NCBI GenBank assembly: GCA_019694475.1
Contig: JAIBBX010000003.1
Location: 248,497-312,496 of the forward strand
Length of the DNA: 64,000 bases
Reading direction: 5' to 3'
From: Parachlamydiales bacterium
GTDB lineage: Bacteria > Chlamydiota > Chlamydiia > Chlamydiales > SM23-39
Shown in pieces: positions 10,645-27,218 of this stretch; the first letter of the stretch is position 1, and every line of letters begins with the position of its first letter. The notes under the pieces are model-generated. The model searched no databases and was not told where the DNA came from. It saw nothing but the letters and a program-made list of their open reading frames with translations. The position numbers were made by a program, and so were the translations under genes.

Positions 10645-11571
10645 CTATGATAATTCATTTATTAATTTTTTTACGAATGCCTCTTTTGCGAGCTCTATGG
10701 CCCCAATCACGGCATTGGTAAATCCTTTGGGAGTCGAATAGCCATGGCACTTGATCACGATTCCTCGGATTCCGGCCAAAATCGCACCCGGATATTCAGC
10801 ATAATGGAGTGATTGGAATTTTTTCACCTGGCTTGAATCAACTTGGATTTTATCCAGGATCAAACTTGCAATTCCTTCTGCTGTTTTCAAAAATACATTT
10901 CCTGTAAATCCATCGGTGACTAAAACGTCCACATCGCCATCGAAAACGGTTTTTCCTTCAATATTGCCGGCAAAATGGATTTTTTCTCTTTTTTGCAATT
11001 CGTTGTAGGCGATTCTGAGCTCCGATGTTCCTTTCAGCGGTTCAGAGCCGATATTCAAGAGGCCGATTCTTGGATTTAGAATGCCGCGGGTTTTTTGGAA
11101 AGCAGCGCCGATCGATGCGAATTGGACCAAATGGGTTGCTTTTGCTTCCACATTGGCTCCCACATCCAAAACAGCGACGGGATTTTTCTTCGTCGGCATC
11201 AAGGTCAAAAGGCACGGCCTTAAAATCCCAGGCAGCGCGCCTAAAATCATCTTTGCCGAAGAGACGAGAGCGCCTGTATTTCCTGCTGAAACAAACGCAT
11301 CGATTTTTCCTTCCTTAAGAAGGCGCATCCCGGTTGGGATGGATGCATTTTTCTTTCTTCTGAGAGCCAGCAGGGGGTGCTCATCCATTTCGATCACTTC
11401 GTGAACAGGAATGAATTCGAAAGGATGGGCTTCTTTAGCAAATTCTGGGGAACCGATGGCAAAAAGGGTTACCTGTGAGGGAATGGAAATTCCCTTTAGG
11501 GCATTGAGCAAGACTTGGGGAGCGTTGTCGTTCCCCATTAAATCGACGCCTATCTTAAGCGGTTGCTGCAA
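10645..11571 (-). CDS. plsX: Phosphate acyltransferase PlsX
   Basis: KIGVDLMGNDNAPQ...GNTGA...DGFTGNV motifs. The track start (11673) would overlap all of rpmF out of frame. An in-frame TTG at 11571 (or ATG at 11538) fits the conserved N-terminus. Confidence 0.85.
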   Translation of the reverse strand: MQQPLKIGVDLMGNDNAPQVLLNALKGISIPSQVTLFAIGSPEFAKEAHPFEFIPVHEVIEMDEHPLLALRRKKNASIPTGMRLLKEGKIDAFVSAGNTGALVSSAKMILGALPGILRPCLLTLMPTKKNPVAVLDVGANVEAKATHLVQFASIGAAFQKTRGILNPRIGLLNIGSEPLKGTSELRIAYNELQKREKIHFAGNIEGKTVFDGDVDVLVTDGFTGNVFLKTAEGIASLILDKIQVDSSQVKKFQSLHYAEYPGAILAGIRGIVIKCHGYSTPKGFTNAVIGAIELAKEAFVKKLINELS

Positions 11572-17355: not shown

Positions 17356-18207
17356 TCAGGAATTTTTAGCGAATTTTTCAAGAGTTTCCTTTGCTGTCGC
17401 TTGTAGCTTTTGCCATTCGGCATTATCGAGTATGCCTTTATATTCTGCTGTTTTAAATGGGGTGGCCCGAATCTGCGTATAGAATTTTCTTAAGGCATCG
17501 ACTTGCTGTTTCGTAAGCCCAATTTTCTCTACGAACCCATCCATGAAATCGTCAAGGTCGCTGTACATGAATAAACCATCGTACATATCTCTTGGTGTGG
17601 AGAAGAACGTTTCGCTTTGATCTACCCAGCTTCTCTTCTGATTCTCTGTATCAGAATATTTAAAAATCCAGTAAAGAATAGAATCGAGCCAGTCTTCTTG
17701 ATTTTCTGATTCATATTTCATCTTTGCAAAAGCGTCTAATACTTTTTGCGCCATTCTTTGAATTTTTTGCCACTCGGGATCAGACAACATTTTTTTTCCA
17801 TCAAGCATAGGAGGATTTGTGGGGGCGTAGACCTCAGGATTGTCTCCATAACTATCAAGAGCTCGAATCAATTTGGATATCTTGCGTTTCTGTTTCCAAG
17901 AAAGGCCTAGCTCATTAGCTTTTTTAATAAATTCAACAACTGCTGAATCATCAAACAAACTGCACATGATTTCGCCAAAGTCACAAGGCTTATGGATTTC
18001 AAATTTGACCCAGGCTCTTTCTTGATAATCCGCACTTGCAATTTCTTTAACGCATGAGATAATATTGTTTATCCAGAGATTTCTTTTCATAATGTTTTCT
18101 TGATTAAGGTCTTGTCCATTGAACTTAAATTCTTCTAAAGGGATGTATACTTCTTCCGATTTTCGGTTATATTTCATGTGTTTCTCATCAAATTTACTTC
18201 CATTCAT
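17356..18207 (-). CDS. Immunity-like protein with two tandem homologous domains (function unknown)
   Basis: 283-aa ORF overlapping the upstream stop. Domains aa ~40-166 and ~170-283 both end in (D/N)xEWQK(I/L)Q..A...L..FAK. The first 32 aa copy the upstream protein's tail. An alternative start is M40 at 18090. Confidence 0.6.
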   Translation of the reverse strand: MNGSKFDEKHMKYNRKSEEVYIPLEEFKFNGQDLNQENIMKRNLWINNIISCVKEIASADYQERAWVKFEIHKPCDFGEIMCSLFDDSAVVEFIKKANELGLSWKQKRKISKLIRALDSYGDNPEVYAPTNPPMLDGKKMLSDPEWQKIQRMAQKVLDAFAKMKYESENQEDWLDSILYWIFKYSDTENQKRSWVDQSETFFSTPRDMYDGLFMYSDLDDFMDGFVEKIGLTKQQVDALRKFYTQIRATPFKTAEYKGILDNAEWQKLQATAKETLEKFAKNS

Positions 18208-19882
18208 CTAAATAGACAAAATCCTCTATGGGAATGTGTATTTCTTGGTGTTTATTTGTATATTTTTCGCCTTTTGAGTCGAATTTGTTCCCATATTTAT
18301 CTAAATGATTACCGTTTTGAGTATATTCTATATAGGGGTTGTGTTGCCATACGTTTGGACTCTTTGGGTCTCCGGGCATAACACGCACGTTTGTGTGTCT
18401 ATTTTGGGGATGAAAATAGACCATTCCCCCATTTTTTTGAGAAAACTCAGCAATAAAGCTATCTGGCAATCCCTTAGGTCTTGGGAAAGTTTTATAACCC
18501 ATTTCATGAAGCGTTTTTCGAATTGTGGCTTCCGATAAATTTTGCCCTCTTAATGTTTTGATGTAGGCTTCGTTTTCCCTCATTTTCTTGAGTTCTGCGG
18601 AGTGCTTTTCTCCCCATTCCACAGCTTTTTCAATCACCTTGGTTTTCTGCCCGGGCGTGGAAAGGGTCTCGAGAGTTAACACAGCGTTTGCTTTACGGAT
18701 TTCCTGATAGGCTTTGGATGCACCGGCAAAGGCGATAACTTCAACCCCATTTTTTGCAATCAGATACCCGAGATATTCTCCCTTTTCTTTCAACGACAAA
18801 GAATCTGAGTCGTAAATGAGAGCTTTGAGTTTTGGAGAAACTGCTTCAACGATTTCAGGAAGGGAATGGGTTGAGACAAACTGGATGAAATTATTACATG
18901 CGTTGTACATTTCTTCGGATAACTTGATGCCTAATGGATCTGCAAACATCCAAAGAGTGGATCCCAATCCTTTGGCGGAGCTTAACAAGCCGGGGAAGAA
19001 TTCAGTTCCAAACTCTTTAAAGCCTTCCTTTGAGCCTGAATAGAACCCTGTTGCAAAGTCTATCCGAGAAGATTCAAGCGGCTTTGAATGAATTCCTGAA
19101 GAAAGAAAGTCTTGGATCGATTGTTCGAAATTCCCGGTTTCAAAATATACGACGGCTCGCTCTAGGAACGCCTCTTTGTTGTTTGGATTTTGAGAAAGCG
19201 ACTGATTCAACGCGGCAATGGCTTCATCATATAAACCTACTTGTGAATAGGCCATTCCTTCGATCAAATAATAGTCGAGGTTTTTCAAGGCGCTATCTTG
19301 AGTGCCAATCACTCTAGCAATGTCGTTGACCGATTCGAAGTACTTTCCTTGATCGTAATAGATCAACCCTCTTTGGTAAAACGCACCCGTGTCATTGTGG
19401 TTTTCTATGCAAAAAGTGTAAATTTCGTTACAGGCATTTGCAATATTATCAAATCCAGAGGACAAGATCCTGAGAGCAATTGGCTGTTCGGCTTGGGTTT
19501 TGATTAGGCATGCTTTTTTTCGATTGACTATCGGCTCATACCAAGCAATTTGTTCTAGTGCGTATTTTGACTCGTCTGCTTTCCATTTTGCGATGATTCG
19601 ATCCATTTCATCGATTTCTGCTGAAAGAGAAGAGTTAAATTCATTGTAGTTTTTTTCTGCGTATTCAATAAGATGCAAAAATTCATTTCGGTATTTTGAA
19701 TACGAGTAGCAGCAATATCCAAGTGAATAACGAGAAGGGAAAAAACATCCGTTTTCTCTTGCTTCGTCAATTGCTGTGCATGCAATTTGTGAAGGAATGC
19801 CGATACTAATTTCTTCCGTGCATGATCTGCAATAGGATACAAGCTGCAGAAATGGTAAGAAAAGAATCCAAAATTTAAACAT
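18194..19882 (-). CDS. Secreted TPR-repeat protein with a C-terminal toxin-like domain (unassigned family)
   Basis: Signal peptide MFKFWILFLPFLQLVSYC. TPR repeats run from ~GAFYQRGLIYYDQGKY to FETGNFEQSIQDF. The C-terminal ~130 aa read ...VRVMPGDPKSPNVWQHNPYIEYTQNGNHLDKYGN...HIPIEDF. Confidence 0.6.
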   Translation of the reverse strand: MFKFWILFLPFLQLVSYCRSCTEEISIGIPSQIACTAIDEARENGCFFPSRYSLGYCCYSYSKYRNEFLHLIEYAEKNYNEFNSSLSAEIDEMDRIIAKWKADESKYALEQIAWYEPIVNRKKACLIKTQAEQPIALRILSSGFDNIANACNEIYTFCIENHNDTGAFYQRGLIYYDQGKYFESVNDIARVIGTQDSALKNLDYYLIEGMAYSQVGLYDEAIAALNQSLSQNPNNKEAFLERAVVYFETGNFEQSIQDFLSSGIHSKPLESSRIDFATGFYSGSKEGFKEFGTEFFPGLLSSAKGLGSTLWMFADPLGIKLSEEMYNACNNFIQFVSTHSLPEIVEAVSPKLKALIYDSDSLSLKEKGEYLGYLIAKNGVEVIAFAGASKAYQEIRKANAVLTLETLSTPGQKTKVIEKAVEWGEKHSAELKKMRENEAYIKTLRGQNLSEATIRKTLHEMGYKTFPRPKGLPDSFIAEFSQKNGGMVYFHPQNRHTNVRVMPGDPKSPNVWQHNPYIEYTQNGNHLDKYGNKFDSKGEKYTNKHQEIHIPIEDFVYLDEWK

Positions 19883-19937
19883 GGGTGAATATATTTAAAA
19901 AATTTTTAGTTTGTTCGCAAGAGAATTTCTGACGTGT

Positions 19938-19969
19938 ACAAGGCAAAAGCTCCTATTCAAAAAAAAAGT
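19938..19969. repeat. Direct repeat copy 2
   Basis: acaaggcaaaagctcctattcaaaaaaaaagt, 56 nt upstream of the start of 18194..19882. Confidence 0.85.
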
Positions 19970-20004
19970 GACTGGTCTATGCTAAGAAAAAATTGAGGTT
20001 TGAT

Positions 20005-22713
20005 ATGAGATGGCTCCTTTATGCAATCGCTGTACCCTGTTTTTCTCTTCCGACGGGCGCCGTTTTTGTGCAGGGCCAAGGGGAACTTCGCTCTACGGAT
20101 CCGCTCCAGATGGAAGTCCAAGCAGCCGACCGTTCGATCATCCACTGGGAGGCGTTCGATGTTGCAGCTCCTGAGTCAGTTATCTTTTCTCTTCCCTCAG
20201 CAGATTGCGCGCTGCTCAATCGGGTGCTAGGAAATGCTAGGAGCGAAATTTTCGGTAAAATTTCCTCGAATGGGCAAATCATTCTCCTCAACCCGAATGG
20301 AATCTTCGTTGGTAAAGAAGCTTGCATCGACACCGCTGGCTGGATCGCAGCAACATTCGATCTTCAAGACAAAACATTTCTTCAGTCCAAGGAATGGCAA
20401 TTTGCAGGCTCTTCTCAGAAGCCAATAGAAATCGAAGGAACCATCCGTGCTCCAAAAATCTCACTTTTCGGGGACAATATCTCTCTTTCAGGATCGTTGA
20501 AAGGGGAATCGATCTTTGTCGGGGGAAGCCGTGAAGGAAAAGATGTTCTCATTCAGAATGCCTCTTTCGTGACGATTTCTCCAAGTGCAGAAATTGAGAC
20601 GATTCGGGATGGCCAGGCCATTTTCTTTTCGAAAGGCGATCTAGATTTCGGAGGACATGTCTATTCTCCAAATGGATTTGTTGAAGTTTCTGCGAAGCAA
20701 AATCTTGCATTCCATGGCCTTGTCGATACAGATAAAACAGGAACGCTCCTCCTCGATCCCAACCAGATCGATATCGTTTTAGGCGGCGCAGGGACCACTA
20801 TTCCGGCCCCGTTTGCTGCCTTTTATAATGGAAGCCCTGCTGTTAGCGCGACAGTGGCGAGCGCAGATCTGATCAACCAGCTGGGGCTCACGAATGTGAC
20901 CATCCAAACAAACAGCTCGATTCCTGGGGGCTCCGGAAATATCACTCTGCATCCAGGAGCTACGATTACTTGGGCTTCGGGAACCAATCTAACCCTGCAA
21001 GCCGATCAGTCAATTCTGATCTACGATTTGATCCACTCGACTGCACCCAACAGTCAAATTGCTCTGTTCGCAAACCAAGGGGATATTGTGATTACGAGCG
21101 ATTTCGGAGGATCGGGAGCTCAAGCACAAATCATCGTAGAAGAATTTCATCCCGTAGGTTTTCCATCCATTATTCTGCAAGCTCCAAACGGTTCGCTGAC
21201 AATGATCGCAGCAAACAATCTTGAAACCAAAGTCCGATCTAACGATCCCGCGAGTTCTGGAGATATACATATAGCAGCCCAATCGCTTAATTTCACAGCT
21301 GCTGCTGCACTTGCTGCAGATGCGAATGCGGGAATTCAAAACGGGAGAGGAGATATCTATGTAAATGTGACAGGGCCATTGAATTTTACTTCAGGCACAG
21401 GAAACGCCCCGAATCAGGCAAACGCGAATATTGTAACTGGTCTTTCAGGCATGGTCCCGACCGGCGGCAATCTTTACTTCTCTGTTGGTTCTTTGAACTT
21501 TAATTCATCTTCATCCATTACAGGCGTTCAAGGGGCTGCTTCTTTAACTGCATATGGAAGCAGCATGGGGGCAGGGTTTGGGAATGTTACGGGAACCGTT
21601 TTTGGAGATGCTTTATTTCAGAGCGGATATCCGATTGCAAACGGGAGCGGGATCTCCTCATTATTCAGCGGAAATATCGATGTGGCGATTCGAGGGAATC
21701 TAACCATGATTTCTAATTCAGGTCCATCGATCGCTTTTTGCGGTACGGGCATCCAGACTTTATTCACTCTGTCAGGAGCGACTGCTGATGTGAATGTTGC
21801 AATCGGGGGGAATTTAATCGCGATCTCGGGTGGAGGAATGGACTCGGGCGCGGGCTTTGGGGCAACCGGAAACTTATCAGTTGCTGTTGCCGGATCAGCG
21901 ATTTTCCAAGTCACGAACGGAACTGCCGGCGGTCAATCAGGAAATGTGATCTTTTCCCGTGCTGGTTCCGTAGATTTTGCAGCTCGCACGGTTTCATTTA
22001 TCGGCAACAACGGAACCCCTTTGCCAGTGGTTATTCAAGCTCAAAACAACATCACTTTTGCAACGATAGGGGATTTAACTCTCAACTTTGGGTCGTTAAT
22101 TGCCACTACTGGCAATATTACGCTTAGATCCGGCGGATCGATCCATCTGCAAACGGGCACATCTTTGCAGGCAAACCAGCAAATTTTGGCAATCGCTGAC
22201 CGCAATATCGAAATGCTGAATAGCTCTGCCAATTCAACAACGGACCGGATTATCTTCGTCGTGGACAATGCATTCCCTGTAAAACCACTCATAGGATCTG
22301 GCGCTTTCATTACCAACCCATCCACCTTAACGGCCCCGCTCGGCATCTCTATCTACACAGCGCAAAGGGCCAGAAACTCCATCCAAAGCACAACGTTTAA
22401 TGGCGCCACTTTTGTGCCAGGAACGCTCTTTGTCAATACAACTGAAGAGATTTGGTGCACTTACTATCCGAATGGGCTTACAACGTTTCCATTCACGATT
22501 TTCTACAAAGATTGCGAGAATCTTGTCGCCTACCAAGCGAATCTAATCGGATCGGAACTTTTCCGGGATCTGCATCCATACGATGAAGCTTGGGGCTGGT
22601 ACGAGCGGTTTACTCTCGCTGATGATGAGCGTACTGAACCTCATATGATCCGCCGCCGCAACCTCATGTTCGATCTGCCCAAGAGCTGGACAAAGATCGT
22701 CAATCATCCCTGA
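20005..22713 (+). CDS. TPS-domain (filamentous haemagglutinin N-terminal) beta-helical exoprotein, TpsA-like
   Basis: HWEAFDV...LLNRVLGNARSEIFGKISSNGQIILLNPNGIFVG is the haemagg_act/TPS signature with NPNGI. G/S/N/T-rich beta-helix repeats follow. ATG at 20005 with GAGG SD (the track TTG is at 19993). Confidence 0.85.
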   Translation: MRWLLYAIAVPCFSLPTGAVFVQGQGELRSTDPLQMEVQAADRSIIHWEAFDVAAPESVIFSLPSADCALLNRVLGNARSEIFGKISSNGQIILLNPNGIFVGKEACIDTAGWIAATFDLQDKTFLQSKEWQFAGSSQKPIEIEGTIRAPKISLFGDNISLSGSLKGESIFVGGSREGKDVLIQNASFVTISPSAEIETIRDGQAIFFSKGDLDFGGHVYSPNGFVEVSAKQNLAFHGLVDTDKTGTLLLDPNQIDIVLGGAGTTIPAPFAAFYNGSPAVSATVASADLINQLGLTNVTIQTNSSIPGGSGNITLHPGATITWASGTNLTLQADQSILIYDLIHSTAPNSQIALFANQGDIVITSDFGGSGAQAQIIVEEFHPVGFPSIILQAPNGSLTMIAANNLETKVRSNDPASSGDIHIAAQSLNFTAAAALAADANAGIQNGRGDIYVNVTGPLNFTSGTGNAPNQANANIVTGLSGMVPTGGNLYFSVGSLNFNSSSSITGVQGAASLTAYGSSMGAGFGNVTGTVFGDALFQSGYPIANGSGISSLFSGNIDVAIRGNLTMISNSGPSIAFCGTGIQTLFTLSGATADVNVAIGGNLIAISGGGMDSGAGFGATGNLSVAVAGSAIFQVTNGTAGGQSGNVIFSRAGSVDFAARTVSFIGNNGTPLPVVIQAQNNITFATIGDLTLNFGSLIATTGNITLRSGGSIHLQTGTSLQANQQILAIADRNIEMLNSSANSTTDRIIFVVDNAFPVKPLIGSGAFITNPSTLTAPLGISIYTAQRARNSIQSTTFNGATFVPGTLFVNTTEEIWCTYYPNGLTTFPFTIFYKDCENLVAYQANLIGSELFRDLHPYDEAWGWYERFTLADDERTEPHMIRRRNLMFDLPKSWTKIVNHP

Positions 22714-22744
22714 GCTGCTTATTCAGGTATTAAAGAAGAACCGA

Positions 22745-22797
22745 GGGTGGGGAAGGATCGCTTGTAGACGGAGATCCTTCACCCAAGAATATTTTTT
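22745..22797 (+). terminator. Hairpin plus T-run between convergent genes
   Basis: gggtggggaaggatc...gatccttcaccc followed by attttttaa. Confidence 0.45.
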
Positions 22798-23074
22798 AAG
22801 GTTCTTGACTTTCCTTTTTGGGAAATAACTGTCTTGCTACAAGCGAGCTGATTGGTTGACTGGGTCGAACATTTACATGAGGCGGAGTAGTAAATTCTAG
22901 ACGGTCTACAGCAACTTGTTGGAGCATTTGCAGAATTCCTGCTACATTGGGAATGGGCGCGGCTTGATCAATAGCTGCATTCGGGAATGGTAAGGGCGGA
23001 GGTAGGGCTAGATCCTCCATATCTTGGGCGAATGCGGGAGGTTCTTGGGGGCCGCCCATACGATGTACACTCAT
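22796..23074 (-). CDS. Hypothetical proline-rich protein
   Basis: 92-aa ORF with LALPPPLPFP. It shares an AT-rich divergent promoter region with 23337. No recognisable family. Confidence 0.4.
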   Translation of the reverse strand: MSVHRMGGPQEPPAFAQDMEDLALPPPLPFPNAAIDQAAPIPNVAGILQMLQQVAVDRLEFTTPPHVNVRPSQPISSLVARQLFPKKESQEP

Positions 23075-23336
23075 ATATCTCCAATAATTTGTTGTTGATT
23101 CGTGATATTATAGTTAATATTAACGCAAAAAGCTATATTCATAATTTATTTAATTAATGTTAAAGATTCGATTTATTTTGGTTTAATTATGGTTAAAAGC
23201 GTCCGGTAGCGTCCAATTTTTGAGTTGATTTGCGTGTAAAGGCTGACAGGAATAAATCTTTTTATATAATTAATAATTTTTTTATTTGTTTTATGTCTTA
23301 TTATTATATTATTTAGTCTGAACAGGAGATAAATAT

Positions 23337-23705
23337 ATGGCAGCAATAACCCCAAGAAATATTCACGAACAATTAGATTGTCTATGTGACGAGGCCCGTT
23401 GGCTACATGTTAAAGCTGAAAATCGAAATGTCGGTGTTGTAGAAGCAATGGATCAGATTGAGTCAATTGCAGAGAGAGCCACGAAACTCTTTGCGAGCAG
23501 AGAGCCCCTTGATCCACAGCAGAAATATAGTGTGGAATCTCAAGTTAAGCAAGTAAGAAAGGTGATTGTTGAGCGTGCCGGTAGAGAATATAATCAAGCT
23601 CTATCTTTTCAGAAGGATGTGAACTCTGATGCAGCTAAATCGGCAGTAGCAAAAGCATATAGTATATATGAGCGGGCGCGCACAAACTGTTCAAAAGAAC
23701 TTTAA
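23337..23705 (+). CDS. Hypothetical helical protein
   Basis: 122-aa ORF with AGGAG SD ~7 nt upstream and a very AT-rich upstream region. Confidence 0.55.
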   Translation: MAAITPRNIHEQLDCLCDEARWLHVKAENRNVGVVEAMDQIESIAERATKLFASREPLDPQQKYSVESQVKQVRKVIVERAGREYNQALSFQKDVNSDAAKSAVAKAYSIYERARTNCSKEL

Positions 23706-23768
23706 TTTTTCAGCGAGAGCAATTCTGAGTGTCTTCCCAATAAAATCCCCATGGTGTATGGGGAAGTT

Positions 23769-24398
23769 ATGGAACGGAAGAAAGCTCTTCTTGTAGGTAC
23801 GCTCGCGATCGCTTTGTCTATTTTTAGCATGGCCTCTCTTTATCAGACGGTTAGGCGAAGCGCTCCTGTTGCTATGAGAACGGCAGGATTTCCGAGCATG
23901 GGCAAAAGCTCCGCGCCTGTAGAAGTGGTTCTTATTGAAGATTTTCAGTGTAAAAACTGCAGAGCTTTCAGTAAAAAAATATTGCCCAAGCTGCAAAAGC
24001 AGTATGTAAAAGAGGGCAAGATCCGATTTACCTTGGTGCCGGTTTCCTTTCTGGCTGGCTCTCAATCGATTGCTAATGCTCTCATGGAAGTTTATCATCA
24101 AAATCCAAAGCTGTTCTTTTCCTATTTGAAAGAGATCTTGAACTACGAGGAAGAACTGAAGCTGGATGAGTTGCTCCGCCTTGCCCGCAGATTGAATGGA
24201 ATCAATCTGGATAAATTGGAAAAGTGCATTCAAAGGCAGTGCCATAATGACGAGCTGCAAAAGAATCTGTCTTGGGCGCAAGGGATTATGGGCAGCCAAT
24301 TCCGCACGCCGGCCCTTTATGTGAATGGCGCTGTGGGTTCGACCTATTCGTTTGAAGCGATTCAATATCAAATCGATCAGATCTTGGGGAACAAATGA
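23769..24398 (+). CDS. DsbA-like thiol:disulfide oxidoreductase (membrane-anchored)
   Basis: Thioredoxin-fold CxxC (FQCKNCRAF) and an N-terminal TM segment. The track start is 23751. Confidence 0.8.
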   Translation: MERKKALLVGTLAIALSIFSMASLYQTVRRSAPVAMRTAGFPSMGKSSAPVEVVLIEDFQCKNCRAFSKKILPKLQKQYVKEGKIRFTLVPVSFLAGSQSIANALMEVYHQNPKLFFSYLKEILNYEEELKLDELLRLARRLNGINLDKLEKCIQRQCHNDELQKNLSWAQGIMGSQFRTPALYVNGAVGSTYSFEAIQYQIDQILGNK

Positions 24399-24781
24399 AG
24401 TGGATTCAGAAAAATGCCCTCTATCTTGCTTGGGTGATCGCATTGGTTGGGATGCTAGGGAGCATTTTTTATGGGGAAGTACTCCGTTTTGAGCCTTGCA
24501 GGCTTTGCTGGTATCAGCGGATCGCCATGTTCCCGCTCGTTCTTTTTTTAGGCATCGCGTTCTATAAAGAAGAGCCCAAAATGGCCCGTTGCTGTCTGCC
24601 GCTCATCGCGATCGGCGCATTTTTTTCTTTCTATCAATCGGTCAGTCAAATCTTTCCAGCGATCCAAATTGCAAGTCTTTGCAGCGAATCGGCTCCTTGC
24701 ACGACTGCGGGAATGGCCCCTTTTTTAAGTTTTTTTGCATTCCTCAGCATGGGACTGCTTATTCACAAGAATAGATTTTAG
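24395..24781 (+). CDS. dsbB: Disulfide bond formation protein B (BdbC/DsbB family)
   Basis: CRLCWYQRIAMFP motif, 4 TM segments, and a 4-nt overlap with the DsbA-like gene. Confidence 0.8.
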   Translation: MKWIQKNALYLAWVIALVGMLGSIFYGEVLRFEPCRLCWYQRIAMFPLVLFLGIAFYKEEPKMARCCLPLIAIGAFFSFYQSVSQIFPAIQIASLCSESAPCTTAGMAPFLSFFAFLSMGLLIHKNRF

Positions 24782-24831: not shown

Positions 24832-25443
24832 ATGGCAAAACTCTATTTTCGTCATGGGACAGTGGGAAGCGCGAAAACGTTGAACTTACTTGCGGTCGCT
24901 CATAACTACAGGCAGCAGGGAAAAAAAATTATTTTGATGAAACCCGATCTCGATACCCGGTTTGGCAAGGAGCGAATTAAATCGCGGGCAGGCCTTGAAA
25001 TGGATGCCGATGCGCTCATCTCCGATGAAACTTCATTGCGGGGGATCGATTATTCAGGGATTAGCTGTATTCTCGTCGATGAAGTGCAATTCATGTCTGC
25101 AAAAGTCATCGAGGAGCTAAGAAGAATTGCCCTTGACTACGATATTCCGGTGCTTTGCTACGGCCTCAGAACCGATTTCAAATCGCGTCTTTTCGAAGGA
25201 TCTCAGCGCCTGTTAGAGCTTGCCGATTCGATCGAAGAGGTGAAAGCGACATGCCACTATTGCAATCGCAAGTCGATCATGAACCTAAAACATGTCAATG
25301 GACTTGCTACAAATGAAGGCCCTTCCGTCGAATTGGGATGCGAAGAGAAATATTATCCCACCTGCTACAAGTGCTACCGCAGAGAATTGGATAAAGCCCG
25401 CATCGCAAGAATGCAAACAACGACCTGCGGCTGCAAGCATTGA
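24832..25443 (+). CDS. tdk: Thymidine kinase
   Basis: P-loop variant GTVGSAKT, VDEVQF, and a C-terminal Zn ribbon CHYCN...CYKCY. ATG at 24832 with GAGG SD. Confidence 0.85.
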   Translation: MAKLYFRHGTVGSAKTLNLLAVAHNYRQQGKKIILMKPDLDTRFGKERIKSRAGLEMDADALISDETSLRGIDYSGISCILVDEVQFMSAKVIEELRRIALDYDIPVLCYGLRTDFKSRLFEGSQRLLELADSIEEVKATCHYCNRKSIMNLKHVNGLATNEGPSVELGCEEKYYPTCYKCYRRELDKARIARMQTTTCGCKH

Positions 25444-25509
25444 GACTCTCTTAGTTACTTGACATGCAACTGAAGTCACTCTATTCTTATATTTTTATAA
25501 AGAGGGTTT

Positions 25510-25635
25510 ATGACGAAAGAAGTAGTAAAGCATCGCAAAGAAGAAAAGAAAAAAGCAGTATTGACGCCAAAAGAGAAAAAAGCAAAGAAGCAAGAAAAAA
25601 AGCTGAATAAAGCCGGGAAATCCTCGGGGGGATAA
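25510..25635 (+). CDS. Possible small lysine-rich protein (41 aa)
   Basis: AGAGGG SD 5 nt upstream. Translation is MTKEVVKHRKEEKKKAVLTPKEKKAKKQEKKLNKAGKSSGG. Below the ORF-track cutoff. Confidence 0.35.
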   Translation: MTKEVVKHRKEEKKKAVLTPKEKKAKKQEKKLNKAGKSSGG

Positions 25636-25642
25636 AAAGTCT

Positions 25643-25742
25643 CGCCAGTGTATTCATCGAGCAGGCCGTTCAGTAGAACGGCCCAGAATATGATGGGCGA
25701 TGTAGATCGCTTTAACCGAAGCGAGGCCTAGGTCGGGTTCTC
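25643..25742 (-). pseudogene. Degenerate duplicate of the 3' end of the DTW-domain gene
   Basis: ~80% identical to 26821..26920. It encodes LGLASVKAIYIAHHILGRSTE, followed by a 1-nt insertion and a premature stop. Confidence 0.8.
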
Positions 25743-25756
25743 CCTGACGCAAAAAC

Positions 25757-26737
25757 TCAATTTCCCTTGCCGGATTGATCTTTTCCGTAGAGCATAACGC
25801 TTAATTTTTCGAAGAAAGAGGTCGTCGTTTCTCCATTGATGAGCGTTTTTCCAATAGGGTCCCAATCAAAGACATAACCTTCTTTATAGTGGGTTTCTAA
25901 ACCATTTGAGTATGGGCCTACTCGAGGATCAATAAACACAACCGTAGAGGTGCGCATTTTTTCTTTCTGAGTTGTTACTCGATGTTCGCAAGCCGACACT
26001 CCGGGTAATAGTTTTTCCATCACGTACCCGAAGTTAACGATAAGATATCCATCTTCGATATAAAGGCTTCTCCACTCGCCATCGATTTTAGCTTCCAAGC
26101 CCGGGTCGGTTACATCAAGAATCGAAACAAGGCCCCAATCTTTGTGCGCGCCGACGCCAAAAGGTTTTGTCCCAAGTTTTGGGTCATAGCAATTGAACAA
26201 CAAGAAAAGTGAGCCTTTGTCGTGGGAAGCTCCGGCGGTAGCATCGAACCAAAGATTTTCTGGCAGCTCATGCCATTTCAGAATGCTCCTTATCACCTGG
26301 ATCCCTATTTCATTCATTTGGGAACCCAACTTTTGAAGTTCAGGAGAGTAATTGGGAGGACCTTCAGCTTCCCGCAGATTCACATAGCACTTATTCCAGT
26401 GGTCTCTTTCCAAGGTGAAACGCACTGTTTGAGCGACTTCGCTATGGAGATAGCCGTTAACGACATCTAGCACTCCGAATTGATTATAACGGGGGTTCGA
26501 AGTAAAGGTTTTGGCGAAAGTGCGGCCTGATTCTAGATCGAGTTCCTCTGGTGCTTTGATACGGAAAAAGCCCGCTTTCATAGCTTCTCGGAAATCATCA
26601 TCAGATTCGAAAGCAACCTCTCCATTGACCATTGATACAGTGACCATGTGATAAATGGGGGCACTTTCTTCAGAGGCAACTTTGAAAGGCGAGCAGATAG
26701 CCGCACAAAAAGCGAATAGTCCAATCATGTATTTCAT
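25757..26737 (-). CDS. 2OG-Fe(II) oxygenase superfamily protein with signal peptide
   Basis: HxD facial triad GAHKDWG, distal His ACEHRV, and Arg RTSTVVF. Signal peptide MKYMIGLFAFCAAICSPFKVAS. Confidence 0.75.
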   Translation of the reverse strand: MKYMIGLFAFCAAICSPFKVASEESAPIYHMVTVSMVNGEVAFESDDDFREAMKAGFFRIKAPEELDLESGRTFAKTFTSNPRYNQFGVLDVVNGYLHSEVAQTVRFTLERDHWNKCYVNLREAEGPPNYSPELQKLGSQMNEIGIQVIRSILKWHELPENLWFDATAGASHDKGSLFLLFNCYDPKLGTKPFGVGAHKDWGLVSILDVTDPGLEAKIDGEWRSLYIEDGYLIVNFGYVMEKLLPGVSACEHRVTTQKEKMRTSTVVFIDPRVGPYSNGLETHYKEGYVFDWDPIGKTLINGETTTSFFEKLSVMLYGKDQSGKGN

Positions 26738-26786
26738 ATTTATAAAGTCCTTTGAAAGGGGGGAACTTTATCAGTATTTTTATATT

Positions 26787-27218
26787 TTATGCAAAGGAGT
26801 TGTTCGTAAGGAAGAGATCGCGCCAGTGATAGCCATCGAGCAGGCCTTCTGTAGAACGGCCCAAAATATGATGGGCGATATAGAGCGCTTCAACAGAAGC
26901 GAGGCCTTGCTCGGGATTCGGCTCTCTGGGGTAGGCTGTTTTGAAGTGAGTTGGAAGGCTTCGTTCTTCAAGCTTGAAAGGAAGTTGATTTTCCATTACG
27001 GCCGCAAGGCGCCAAGTCCCGTCAATCAGAAGAAGTCCTCGATCTGAGTCCTCTTTTGTCAAAGGAGGCGCGCCCACTTTGAGCAGAATAAAGCCTGTAA
27101 CATCGGGTAATTGATGGATCGGATAGGTATAAAAAGCTAGATCGTCCCGCTTTTCCAAGCCTCTCAAAGAGCATTTTTTTAAATTTTCCCGCCTGTGGCG
27201 CAGTATGATTGTTTTCAT
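26787..27218 (-). CDS. DTW-domain protein (aminocarboxypropyltransferase TapT/Tsr3-like family)
   Basis: LLLIDGTWRLA (DTW motif), KKCSLRGL, and LASVEALYIAHHILG. Confidence 0.6.
   Translation of the reverse strand: MKTIILRHRRENLKKCSLRGLEKRDDLAFYTYPIHQLPDVTGFILLKVGAPPLTKEDSDRGLLLIDGTWRLAAVMENQLPFKLEERSLPTHFKTAYPREPNPEQGLASVEALYIAHHILGRSTEGLLDGYHWRDLFLTNNSFA

What the first reader, a model, noticed from the sequence alone, without database searches (positions are those of the whole stretch)
19993..22713. Orphan TPS-domain (TpsA/FHA-like) exoprotein with no TpsB partner in the window, divergent from the toxin cassette
- The N-terminus carries an unambiguous two-partner-secretion TPS domain (LLNRVLGNARSEIFGKISSNGQIILLNPNGIFVG), followed by ~650 aa of beta-helix-type repeats.
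- It ends in a distinct ~110-aa C-terminal region: ...WCTYYPNGLTTFPFTIFYKDCENLVAYQANLIGSELFRDLHPYDEAWGWYERF....
- TpsA proteins normally need an adjacent Omp85-type TpsB. None of the ORFs in this 64 kb looks like one: there is no POTRA plus ~550-aa barrel.
- TPS exoproteins include CdiA contact-dependent toxins. This one sits back-to-back with a toxin/immunity-like cassette, which raises the possibility of a CDI-related or otherwise novel delivery arrangement in an intracellular bacterium.
Basis: partly seen in the sequence, partly recalled or inferred. Interest (0 to 1): 0.55.

Follow-up and report, generated by a model that had tools for sequence, protein, structure and literature searches.

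The report
Unlinked chlamydial two-partner-secretion surface protein
This gene encodes a long, rod-shaped surface protein of the two-partner-secretion type in an environmental chlamydia; it has no transporter gene beside it and is not a toxin-delivery protein, but belongs to a large chlamydial family marked by a conserved, so far uncatalogued tail domain.

Summary
Window 20005..22713 (+) encodes a 902-aa protein identical to a Parachlamydiales MAG protein. It has a signal peptide, a clear TPS domain and a β-helix that matches solved TpsA structures. No TpsB is encoded anywhere in the 64 kb.

The CDI or novel-delivery reading does not hold. The last ~157 aa are the most conserved part of the protein, not a variable toxin tip. 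There is no pretoxin motif and no conserved immunity gene.

This tail defines a large family: 699 cluster representatives, and 134 of the 136 long members sampled also carry a TPS domain. Every named member is from Chlamydiota. The tail matches nothing in Pfam, NCBIfam or the PDB. It contains a co-varying cysteine pair, which suggests a disulfide.

Relatives with this tail sit directly beside canonical TpsB genes in 7 loci, including two short-type members. So this is most likely an ordinary type Vb substrate served by a transporter encoded elsewhere, as known for other unlinked TpsA genes. Whether this MAG has a TpsB could not be tested.

The neighbouring toxin/immunity cassette is real, but it is an independent, strain-specific insertion. 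Relatives of that toxin are not linked to TpsA genes elsewhere.

The parts
19883..20004 (.). AT-rich 122-bp intergenic region between the divergent toxin gene and the TpsA gene. It holds a GAGG ribosome-binding site about 8 nt before ATG 20005.
   Evidence: Sequence read directly. The sigma-70 consensus scan found no strong promoter here, but chlamydial promoters may not fit that consensus.
20005..22713 (+). TpsA-type gene: 902 aa plus stop codon. The product is identical to MBX7066894.1 (Parachlamydiales MAG).
20005..20064 (+). Probable Sec signal peptide (MRWLLYAIAVPCFSLP...), of ordinary short length.
   Evidence: Judged by eye from the sequence: a basic residue followed by a 13-residue hydrophobic stretch, with 'P.FSLP.G' conserved in the close orthologues. 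No signal-peptide predictor was available. AF2 pLDDT is below 50 for residues 1-13.
20122..20544 (+). TPS secretion domain (aa 40-180 of the 902-aa protein), with the LNRV and NPNG motifs. NPNG starts at aa 96, nt 20290.
   Evidence: Pfam PF05860 at 81.7 bits and TIGR01901 at 63.4 bits. PDB sequence hits to EtpA, HMW1 and HxuA secretion domains. Eighteen invariant residues are shared with the TpsB-linked relatives P0009 and P0016.
20575..22239 (+). Right-handed β-helix shaft (aa 191-745). It is the least conserved part and varies in length across the family.
   Evidence: AF2 model at pLDDT mostly above 85. Foldseek matches EtpA at 1.8e-18 and HxuA at 8e-10. Region identities.
22240..22710 (+). 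Conserved C-terminal domain (CTD, aa 746-902). It comprises the last β-helix rungs and cap (VVDNxFP...IYTAxQ...WCTYYP...PFTIFYKDC), a helix (aa ~838-852), and a conserved basic tail (EPxxxRRR...PKSWT).
   Evidence: It is the most conserved region in all 8 pairwise comparisons. A profile search finds 699 cluster representatives, nearly always at the extreme C-terminus. Of 136 long members, 134 also have a TPS domain. There are no Pfam, NCBIfam or PDB matches. The AF2 model from 36 sequences is.
22456..22515 (+). Span from the Cys818 codon (22456-22458) to the Cys837 codon (22513-22515): a putative disulfide pair within the CTD.
   Evidence: Of 135 family members, both Cys are present in 117, both absent in 16, and only one present in 2. 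Codons were verified. The disulfide itself is inferred.
22752..22797 (+). Terminator-like element: an 8-bp inverted repeat GAAGGATC / GATCCTTC with a 13-nt loop, followed by a T-run. It suggests the gene is monocistronic.
   Evidence: Read from the sequence. The consensus scan missed it because the loop exceeds 8 nt.

Best explanation
The gene encodes a type Vb (two-partner secretion) passenger protein of a Parachlamydiales bacterium.

Proposed mechanism:
- The protein crosses the inner membrane through Sec.
- Its N-terminal TPS domain docks on the POTRA domains of an Omp85-type TpsB transporter. That transporter is encoded elsewhere in the genome and is probably shared with other TpsA paralogues.
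- The roughly 700-residue chain is threaded out and folds into a rigid β-helix on the cell surface. It most likely acts as an adhesin or host-contact protein.
- The conserved 157-aa C-terminal domain caps the β-helix, is stabilised by a Cys818-Cys837 disulfide, and ends in a conserved basic tail. By analogy with HMW1A and HxuA, this module most likely controls the end of secretion and keeps the protein tethered to the cell or transporter rather than released.

It is not a CdiA-type toxin.

Shown here: the TPS domain, the β-helix, conservation of the CTD, cysteine co-variation, TpsB linkage in relatives, and absence of a TpsB in the window.

Inferred: a TpsB acting in trans in this genome, the disulfide, the tethering role, and the adhesin function.
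For: - TPS domain well above curated cutoffs.
- The AF2 β-helix matches solved TpsA structures: EtpA 1.8e-18, then HxuA, HMW1 and HpmA.
- The CTD co-occurs with a TPS domain in 134 of 136 long proteins.
- CTD-bearing TpsA genes lie directly beside canonical TpsB genes (ShlB + POTRA_2) in L003, L007, L008, L009, L010, L011/L012 and L014/L015. These include the short-type full-length relatives P0009 and P0016.
- All 18 invariant TPS-domain residues are shared between the unlinked and the TpsB-linked members.
- The gene is intact and syntenic in a 73%-identical orthologue.
- The Cys pair co-varies 117/16/2.
- The literature shows that some TpsBs secrete more than one TpsA, that non-operon arrangements exist, and that a disulfide-containing C-terminal anchor is known in HMW1A and HxuA (PMC5422565; PMC4873976).
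- A second TPS-domain protein, MBX7066512.1, has an accession only 382 away and so probably comes from the same MAG.
Against: - No TpsB could be shown in this MAG. Only 64 kb of it is visible.
- None of the 120 best TpsB hits is named Parachlamydiales or lies on a contig of 341,382 or 571,952 bp.
- The four closest relatives give no TpsB within their flanks (L001, L002, L016), or are uninformative (L004, where the contig ends 27 bp after the gene).
- For the tethering idea: the Cys pair is 65-84 residues from the C-terminus, 19 residues apart, and lies inside the predicted β-helix cap. In HxuA the cysteines are 6 apart near the very end. There is no sequence or fold similarity to the HxuA tail.
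- The tail is modelled with low confidence.
- There are no expression or localisation data.
Confidence: 0.6

Rival explanations
1. The CTD is the functional distal tip of the rod, for example a host-receptor-binding or enzymatic module, rather than a secretion-stop or anchor module. The protein would still be a TpsB-dependent TpsA.
For: - AF2 places the first ~90 residues of the CTD, including both cysteines, as a continuation and cap of the extracellular β-helix.
- Strong conservation across a family whose shafts vary from 900 to 3800 aa is also what a conserved binding module would show.
Against: - There is no fold or sequence match to any known binding or catalytic domain.
- A host-binding tip would be expected to diversify between lineages with different hosts, whereas this is the most conserved region.
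- The conserved basic tail (RRR...PKSWT) at the very end looks more like an interaction motif than part of a folded domain.
Confidence: 0.25
2. The short-type clade has become independent of a dedicated TpsB. Either it is exported or anchored by another route that uses the CTD (for example a general Omp85 such as BamA or TamA), or it is a non-exported relic.
For: - No TpsB lies within the flanks in any informative context of the >=48%-identity clade: window, L001, L002 and L016.
- No Parachlamydiales-named TpsB appears among the top hits.
Against: - TPS-domain invariants are fully retained.
- The more distant short-type members P0009 and P0016 are TpsB-linked.
- The ORF is intact and under evident constraint across 48-73% identical orthologues.
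- The CTD has no β-barrel character and no conserved aromatic C-terminal residue.
- No TpsB-independent TpsA export is described in the TPS review read here (PMC5422565).
Confidence: 0.08
3. It is a CdiA-like contact-dependent inhibition protein whose C-terminal region is a toxin, with immunity encoded nearby.
For: It is a TpsA with a distinct C-terminal region and sits beside a toxin/immunity cassette.
Against: - The C-terminus is the most conserved region rather than polymorphic, and it is shared by hundreds of proteins.
- There is no VENN, ELYN or LYN motif.
- No Pfam FHA-repeat or toxin domains are detected.
- There is no conserved downstream gene: window 22714-23731 is absent from the orthologous locus.
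- There is no adjacent cdiB.
- At 902 aa it is far smaller than the 180-650 kDa given for CdiA proteins in the TPS review (PMC5422565).
Confidence: 0.02
4. The TpsA works together with the neighbouring Sec-exported TPR-scaffold polymorphic toxin, for example as a surface docking or delivery platform, as proposed for FhaB and adenylate cyclase toxin in Bordetella.
For: - Toxin cassettes of the same scaffold family flank the orthologous TpsA gene in two genomes, on opposite sides.
- A protein sharing part of the toxin's C-terminal region lies about 8 kb from the Simkaniaceae tpsBA pair.
Against: - None of the 9 metagenomic loci encoding the toxin scaffold (several with 7-10 kb flanks) has a TPS domain, CTD or TpsB nearby.
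- Ten other CTD-TpsA loci have no such toxin.
- The two cassettes are independent insertions into a syntenic backbone.
Confidence: 0.04

Closest known systems
HxuA / HMW1A / EtpA subgroup of TpsA proteins (Haemophilus influenzae, ETEC)
   Same: - Best sequence and structure matches for the TPS domain and β-helix.
- Similar size to HxuA (902 against 884 aa).
- Similar C-terminal plan: the β-helix ends, a helix follows, then a tail with a cysteine pair. [quoted passage not shown]
   Different: - Identity is only about 15%, and outside the TPS domain there is no detectable sequence similarity.
- The C-terminal module is about 157 aa, with cysteines 19 apart and 65-84 residues from the end. HxuA has Cys855 and Cys861 in an 884-aa protein.
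- There is no sequence or fold match to their tails.
- Those genes lie in operons with their TpsB.
Unlinked TpsA genes served by a shared or promiscuous TpsB (Bordetella FhaS with FhaC; Neisseria meningitidis TpsA/TpsB systems)
   Same: A TpsA gene with an intact TPS domain and no adjacent transporter. The TPS review states that some TpsBs secrete more than one TpsA and that non-operon arrangements exist (PMC5422565). In L010 a short-type relative sits beside a tpsA-tpsB operon, consistent with sharing.
   Different: In those systems the shared transporter has been identified and tested. Here it has not been found, and the organism is an uncultured chlamydia.
Chlamydial TPS operons (Simkaniaceae tpsB-tpsA in CP073763.1; the huxA/huxB-like operon noted in Rhabdochlamydia helvetica)
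   Same: Same phylum. The Simkaniaceae TpsA (P0032) carries the same CTD. R. helvetica is reported to have a TPS operon (PMC6490308).
   Different: Those are classical linked pairs with longer passengers (1507 aa in P0032). The window's gene is a shorter, unlinked paralogue type.
CdiA / BcpA contact-dependent inhibition proteins
   Same: TPS domain and β-helical passenger, and a genomic neighbourhood containing toxin/immunity genes.
   Different: There is no polymorphic C-terminal toxin, no pretoxin motif, no downstream immunity gene and no adjacent CdiB, and the protein is much smaller.
Chlamydial polymorphic membrane proteins (Pmp, type Va autotransporters)
   Same: β-helical surface proteins of chlamydiae with a presumed adhesin role. 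This comparison is analogy only and rests on my own knowledge.
   Different: Pmps carry their own C-terminal β-barrel (PF03797) and GGA[ILV]/FxxN repeats. This protein has no barrel, no GGA[ILV] motif and only 4 FxxN motifs.

Membership tests
TpsA (type Vb / two-partner secretion passenger) | N-terminal TPS secretion domain with the conserved NPNG motif | tested here: met
   PF05860 at 81.7 bits (cutoff 33.5) and TIGR01901 at 63.4 bits (cutoff 29.1). NPNG is at aa 96.
TpsA (type Vb / two-partner secretion passenger) | Sec-type signal peptide | tested here: inconclusive
   The sequence MRWLLYAIAVPCFSLP has the expected n- and h-regions and is conserved in orthologues. No signal-peptide predictor was available.
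TpsA (type Vb / two-partner secretion passenger) | Right-handed β-helical passenger resembling solved TpsAs | tested here: met
   AF2 mean pLDDT 79 with a continuous β-helix. Foldseek: EtpA 1.8e-18, HxuA 8e-10, HMW1 4e-9, HpmA 1e-3.
TpsA (type Vb / two-partner secretion passenger) | Cognate TpsB (Omp85 barrel plus 2 POTRA domains) encoded adjacent | tested here: not met
   The 64-kb window has no ShlB, POTRA or Omp85 ORF. Adjacency is typical of the family but not obligatory (PMC5422565).
TpsA (type Vb / two-partner secretion passenger) | A TpsB present somewhere in the same genome | not testable with these tools
   - The MAG is not in the contig index and is not among the GTDB representatives found.
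- No TpsB hit named Parachlamydiales appears among the 120 listed.
- In relatives with the same CTD, a TpsB is adjacent in 7 loci.
TpsA (type Vb / two-partner secretion passenger) | Export that depends on the TpsB | not testable with these tools
   This needs an experiment.
CdiA / contact-dependent inhibition | Polymorphic C-terminal toxin set off by a pretoxin motif (VENN or equivalent) | tested here: not met
   The C-terminus is the most conserved region in 8 of 8 comparisons, and no VENN, ELYN or LYN motif is present.
CdiA / contact-dependent inhibition | Cognate immunity gene immediately downstream | tested here: not met
   Downstream 22714-23731 is strain-specific and absent from the 73% orthologue's locus. 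Its small ORFs have no Pfam match at E <= 0.1.
CdiA / contact-dependent inhibition | Adjacent cdiB | tested here: not met
HMW1A/HxuA-type C-terminal anchor | Cysteine pair near the C-terminus forming a disulfide loop | tested here: inconclusive
   Cys818 and Cys837 co-vary (117 both, 16 neither, 2 one only). However, they lie 65-84 residues from the end, are 19 apart, and sit inside the predicted β-helix cap.
HMW1A/HxuA-type C-terminal anchor | Sequence or fold similarity to the HxuA tail | tested here: not met
   The CTD profile against all PDB sequences, which include the 884-aa HxuA chain seen, gives nothing at E <= 10 apart from chance hits. Foldseek best E-value is 3. The HxuA tail is not resolved in crystals, so the fold comparison says little.
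HMW1A/HxuA-type C-terminal anchor | Surface retention lost when the cysteines or tail are removed | not testable with these tools
   This needs an experiment.
Classical autotransporter / chlamydial Pmp (type Va) | C-terminal 12-stranded β-barrel (PF03797) ending in an aromatic residue | tested here: not met
   No PF03797 hit. The CTD is modelled as a β-helix cap plus a helix. The family's last residues are mostly E, L, D or P.
Classical autotransporter / chlamydial Pmp (type Va) | Repeated GGA[ILV] and FxxN motifs | tested here: not met
   GGA[ILV] occurs 0 times and FxxN 4 times.

The most novel reading that the evidence does not exclude
The short, TpsB-unlinked clade to which this gene belongs no longer uses a dedicated TpsB. 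Instead, its conserved, uncatalogued C-terminal domain would mediate outer-membrane passage or anchoring by another route, for example a general Omp85 such as BamA or TamA, or covalent disulfide linkage into the chlamydial outer-membrane complex. That would be a type V variant specific to Chlamydiota.
Probability: 0.06. Interest if true: 0.7.

Novelty: new variant of a known kind. Interest (0 to 1): 0.33.

Why it matters
Environmental chlamydiae must attach to and enter amoebae or other hosts, yet their surface adhesins are poorly known.

This analysis shows that Chlamydiota carry a large family of two-partner-secretion β-helix proteins. Its members share two conserved ends: the TPS domain and a roughly 155-aa C-terminal domain that no domain database names and no solved structure resembles.

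If that domain proves to be a secretion-stop or tethering module, it would extend the HMW1A/HxuA anchoring principle to a new, much larger module. It would also give a handle for finding surface proteins in uncultured chlamydiae.

For the finding as submitted, the practical message is mostly negative. The orphan status is a common gene arrangement rather than a new delivery system, and the adjacent toxin cassette is unrelated.

Tried and rejected
- The adjacent 562-aa ORF (18194..19882, minus strand) is the right size for a TpsB, but it is a TPR protein with a toxin-like tip.
- Exact look-up of the window's protein or P0001 in the contig index found nothing on record, so the rest of the MAG could not be read. 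P0015 was also not on record.
- Accession look-up of ten unnamed NCBI-sourced TpsB hits, to see whether any belongs to the MBX7066xxx MAG, returned no accessions and so gave no information.
- The word-indexed homology search with the CTD alignment returned only 4 short proteins. The exhaustive profile search was what revealed the family.
The 9-sequence alignment used a single peptide pattern and confirmed only 5 loci, so taxonomic breadth is under-sampled.
- The full-length AF2 run with 9 sequences left the last ~100 aa unmodelled. The deeper CTD run improved the core but not the tail.
- Foldseek, PDB-sequence, Pfam and NCBIfam searches of the CTD were all negative.
- A search for a decayed copy of the L001-type cassette in the window's downstream gap found none.
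- The test of general toxin-TpsA linkage was negative.
- Literature searches for chlamydial TpsA proteins found only a one-line mention of a TPS operon in Rhabdochlamydia helvetica.
- Autotransporter and Pmp readings were considered and rejected (see the membership rows). A type III effector reading was considered unlikely given the signal-peptide-like N-terminus and the TPS domain, but it was not tested.
Full report
**1. Observation**

The window contains an ORF at 19993..22713 on the + strand. The annotated start is probably ATG 20005: a GAGG lies about 8 nt upstream, and the resulting 902-aa protein is identical to MBX7066894.1, named [quoted passage not shown], from a 341-kb MAG contig.

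Pfam TPS (PF05860) scores 81.7 bits against a cutoff of 33.5. TIGR01901 scores 63.4 against 29.1.

An AF2 model built on nine family members (mean pLDDT 79) is one continuous β-helix from about residue 20 to about 800. Foldseek matches solved TpsA proteins: EtpA 1.8e-18, HxuA 8e-10, HMW1 4e-9, plus HpmA and FHA.

**2. No TpsB in the window**

I scanned against Pfam all ORFs of more than 300 aa and several of 200-300 aa. None has a ShlB, POTRA or Omp85 domain. They are housekeeping genes (LpxB, PcnB, RNase G, PlsX, UvrD, UvrC, MutS, DnaG and others) plus a eukaryote-type UCH.

The adjacent 562-aa ORF, which is TpsB-sized, is a TPR protein. A TpsB HMM that I built from 98 chlamydia-centred TpsB sequences found nothing among all window ORFs of >=80 aa, while it scored 580-760 bits on true TpsBs in other loci.

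**3. The C-terminal region is a conserved domain, not a variable tip**

Full-length homologues exist at 73% identity (P0002), 48-52% (P0003-P0006) and about 30% (P0007, P0009, P0016). In their alignment, the last ~157 residues (aa 746-902) are the most conserved region in every pairwise comparison:

| Homologue | CTD identity | TPS-domain identity | Shaft identity |
|---|---|---|---|
| P0002 | 83% | 71% | 72% |
| P0004 | 70% | 49% | 50% |
| P0009 | 43% | 37% | 24% |

An exhaustive profile search of 1.84 billion cluster representatives with this region found 699 proteins at E <= 1e-3 and 119 at E <= 1e-30. The match is almost always at the extreme C-terminus of proteins of 900-3800 aa.

Among the sequences I hold, 134 of the 136 proteins of >=800 aa that carry the domain also have an N-terminal TPS domain. 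It is therefore the dedicated C-terminal domain (CTD) of one TpsA subfamily.

Every member that carries an organism name is from Chlamydiota: Parachlamydiales, Simkaniaceae, Chlamydiales, and "Chlamydiota/Chlamydiae bacterium".

The CTD matches no known model or structure:
- Pfam: no match for the window's CTD at E <= 10 or for any of the 36 diverse members at E <= 0.01.
- NCBIfam: no match for any of the 36 diverse members.
- PDB by sequence or profile: nothing significant.
- PDB by fold: best Foldseek E-value is 3.0.

**4. Anatomy of the CTD**

With 36 sequences, AF2 models residues 715-835 at pLDDT above 90 as the final β-helix rungs and cap. This stretch includes the motifs VVDNxFP, IYTAxQ, WCTYYP and PFTIFYKDC. 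A helix follows at about 838-852 (pLDDT about 78). The tail is low-confidence, yet it contains the strongly conserved EPxxxRRR...PKSWT motif.

Cys818 and Cys837 co-vary across 135 members: both present in 117, both absent in 16, and one only in 2. I read this as a disulfide, which implies folding outside the cytoplasm. That step is inference.

The family has no conserved aromatic last residue and no barrel-like prediction, so the CTD is not an autotransporter-type translocator.

**5. Is it really an orphan?**

Chlamydial TpsBs clearly exist. In a Simkaniaceae genome (CP073763.1), a 543-aa ShlB/POTRA_2 protein lies directly upstream of a 1507-aa TpsA that carries the same CTD. A search with that TpsB returns hundreds of relatives, many of them named as chlamydial.

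Scanning all fetched loci with my TpsB, TPS and CTD HMMs gave this tally:

- **TpsB-linked (7 loci):** L003, L007, L008, L009, L010, L011/L012 and L014/L015.
  - In L010 the short-type relative P0009 (947 aa) is convergent on a tpsA(1227 aa)-tpsB operon.
  - In L011/L012 the short-type relative P0016 (891 aa) has a TpsB immediately downstream.
- **Unlinked (7 loci):** the window (20 kb upstream and 41 kb downstream examined), L001, L002, L005, L006, L013 and L016.
- **Uninformative (1 locus):** L004, where the contig ends 27 bp after the gene.

The >=48%-identity clade that contains the window's gene is unlinked in all four informative contexts. In L004, L010 and L016 the short gene sits beside a longer CTD-bearing TpsA paralogue.

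All 18 invariant TPS-domain residues are shared between unlinked and linked members. The 73% orthologue is intact in a syntenic position, LpxB-S9-PcnB-[TpsA]-DsbA-DsbB-TK-UvrD, at 71-82% nucleotide identity.

The TPS review states that some TpsBs secrete more than one TpsA and that arrangements other than operons exist (PMC5422565). The simplest reading is a TpsB encoded elsewhere, probably shared.

I could not verify this for the MAG itself:
- Its contigs are not in the accessible indexes.
- The only hint is that a second TPS-domain protein, MBX7066512.1 (649 aa, no CTD), has an accession 382 away from this one and so probably belongs to the same MAG.

**6. CDI reading**

This reading is rejected for five reasons:
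- The C-terminus is conserved rather than polymorphic.
- There is no VENN, ELYN or LYN motif.
- There is no FHA-repeat or toxin Pfam domain.
- There is no adjacent cdiB.
- The 1 kb downstream (22714-23731) is strain-specific, absent from the orthologous locus, and has no recognisable gene.

**7. The neighbouring cassette**

The 562-aa protein shares a TPR and scaffold region with an Ntox50-bearing protein that flanks the orthologous TpsA in L001: aa 139-434, 32% identity, E = 3e-44. Their tips and downstream genes differ. The window has a SCO4402/DUF7945-like gene and L001 has MafI2. This is the pattern of a polymorphic toxin family. Ntox50 is a predicted BECR-fold RNase known in chlamydiae (PMC3482391).

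In two metagenomic loci (L017, L024), the same tip is followed by homologues of the 283-aa ORF, which confirms a toxin/immunity pair.

However, the cassettes in the window and in L001 are independent insertions on opposite sides of the TpsA gene. None of the 9 metagenomic toxin-scaffold loci has a TPS domain, CTD or TpsB nearby. Ten other CTD-TpsA loci lack the toxin. I conclude that the adjacency is a local variable island, not a functional coupling.

**8. Mechanism proposed**

1. The protein is exported through Sec.
2. Its TPS domain is recognised by a TpsB encoded in trans.
3. The β-helix folds vectorially at the surface.
4. The CTD caps the helix and is stabilised by a disulfide.
5. The terminal helix and basic tail interact with the transporter or periplasm, so that the protein stays tethered.

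Step 5 rests on analogy with HxuA. In HxuA an amphipathic helix packs on the helix end, residues 824-853 are proposed to sit in the HxuB barrel, and a Cys855-Cys861 loop anchors the protein in the periplasm (PMC4873976). The analogy is functional only. The cysteine geometry differs and no homology is detectable.

My confidence in each step:
- TpsA identity: about 0.9.
- TpsB in trans: about 0.65.
- Tethering role of the CTD: about 0.35. The main alternative is that the CTD is a distal functional tip.

**9. Novelty and score**

The gene itself is a new member of a known kind, and its orphan arrangement has precedents. What is new is the recognition of a Chlamydiota-wide TpsA subfamily defined by an uncatalogued, structurally unmatched C-terminal domain with a co-varying cysteine pair. 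I therefore rate it "new variant of a known kind".

A specialist would find the domain mildly interesting and the orphan/CDI idea unsurprising once checked. Interest is 0.33.

Noticed in passing
window 17356..19882 (minus strand): This is a genuine polymorphic toxin/immunity cassette. It encodes a 562-aa signal-peptide and TPR-scaffold protein whose ~125-aa tip has no Pfam match, followed by a 283-aa SCO4402/DUF7945-like ORF. The first ~29 residues of that ORF repeat the last ~27 residues of the toxin. Homologues in L017 and L024 align only from residue ~40, so the real immunity start is probably M40 (nt 18090), and the 5' part looks like a relic of tip replacement.
   Followed up: partly
L001 6127..8670 (minus strand): In the 73%-identical orthologous locus, a different cassette lies downstream of the TpsA gene instead of upstream. 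It has the same TPR scaffold but an Ntox50 tip and a MafI2 immunity gene. The two are independent insertions into a backbone that is otherwise syntenic at 71-82% nucleotide identity.
   Followed up: yes
L024 2017..13486: This metagenomic contig has a full-length toxin of the same scaffold, then several tip-only ORFs each followed by homologues of the immunity ORF, and a second full-length toxin on the other strand. It looks like an array of orphan toxin-tip and immunity modules.
   Followed up: no
window 25440..26822: This is a 1.38-kb insertion relative to L001 that carries a 2OG-Fe(II) oxygenase gene (25757..26737, minus strand). A ~97-bp stretch at 25645..25739 repeats, at 75% identity, the sequence that resumes at 26823, which suggests a duplication created by the insertion.
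   Followed up: no
window 22714..23731: The gap between the TpsA gene and dsbA is unique to this genome. It holds a near-consensus sigma-70-like promoter (23243..23270, 11 of 12 matches) in front of a 122-aa ORF (23337..23705, +) with no Pfam match at E <= 0.1.
   Followed up: no
L004 6194..12694; L010 2282..10588; L016 5330..12862: The short (~900-950 aa) CTD-TpsA type repeatedly sits next to a longer CTD-bearing TpsA paralogue of 1181, 1227 or 1552 aa, in divergent, convergent or tandem orientation. Only L010 also has a TpsB there.
   Followed up: partly
L009 2689..11356: Upstream of a TpsB in a Simkaniaceae MAG there are separate ORF fragments with TPS-domain and CTD matches (2689-3287, 5531-6451, 10667-11356) around a 1209-aa TpsA. 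These may be frameshifted or decaying paralogues, or assembly errors.
   Followed up: no
proteins P0325 (3692 aa) and P0363 (3829 aa): Two giant family members give four separate partial matches to the CTD profile, so parts of the module may be repeated internally in very long TpsAs.
   Followed up: no
protein P0015 (MBX7066512.1), 572-kb contig, probably of the same MAG: This is a second TPS-domain protein of 649 aa without the CTD. Its accession is 382 away from that of the window's protein. Its neighbourhood, which might hold the MAG's TpsB, could not be retrieved.
   Followed up: partly
window 830..5219: This stretch has a eukaryote-type ubiquitin C-terminal hydrolase (UCH, 830..2014) followed by a 1034-aa ORF with no Pfam match (2115..5219). 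UCH-type proteins are noted as likely host-directed deubiquitinases in amoeba symbionts (PMC3482391).
   Followed up: no
window 23751..24781: dsbA-like (Thioredoxin_4) and dsbB genes lie just downstream of the TpsA gene and are syntenic in L001. This is suggestive given the putative disulfide in the CTD, but it may be coincidence.
   Followed up: no
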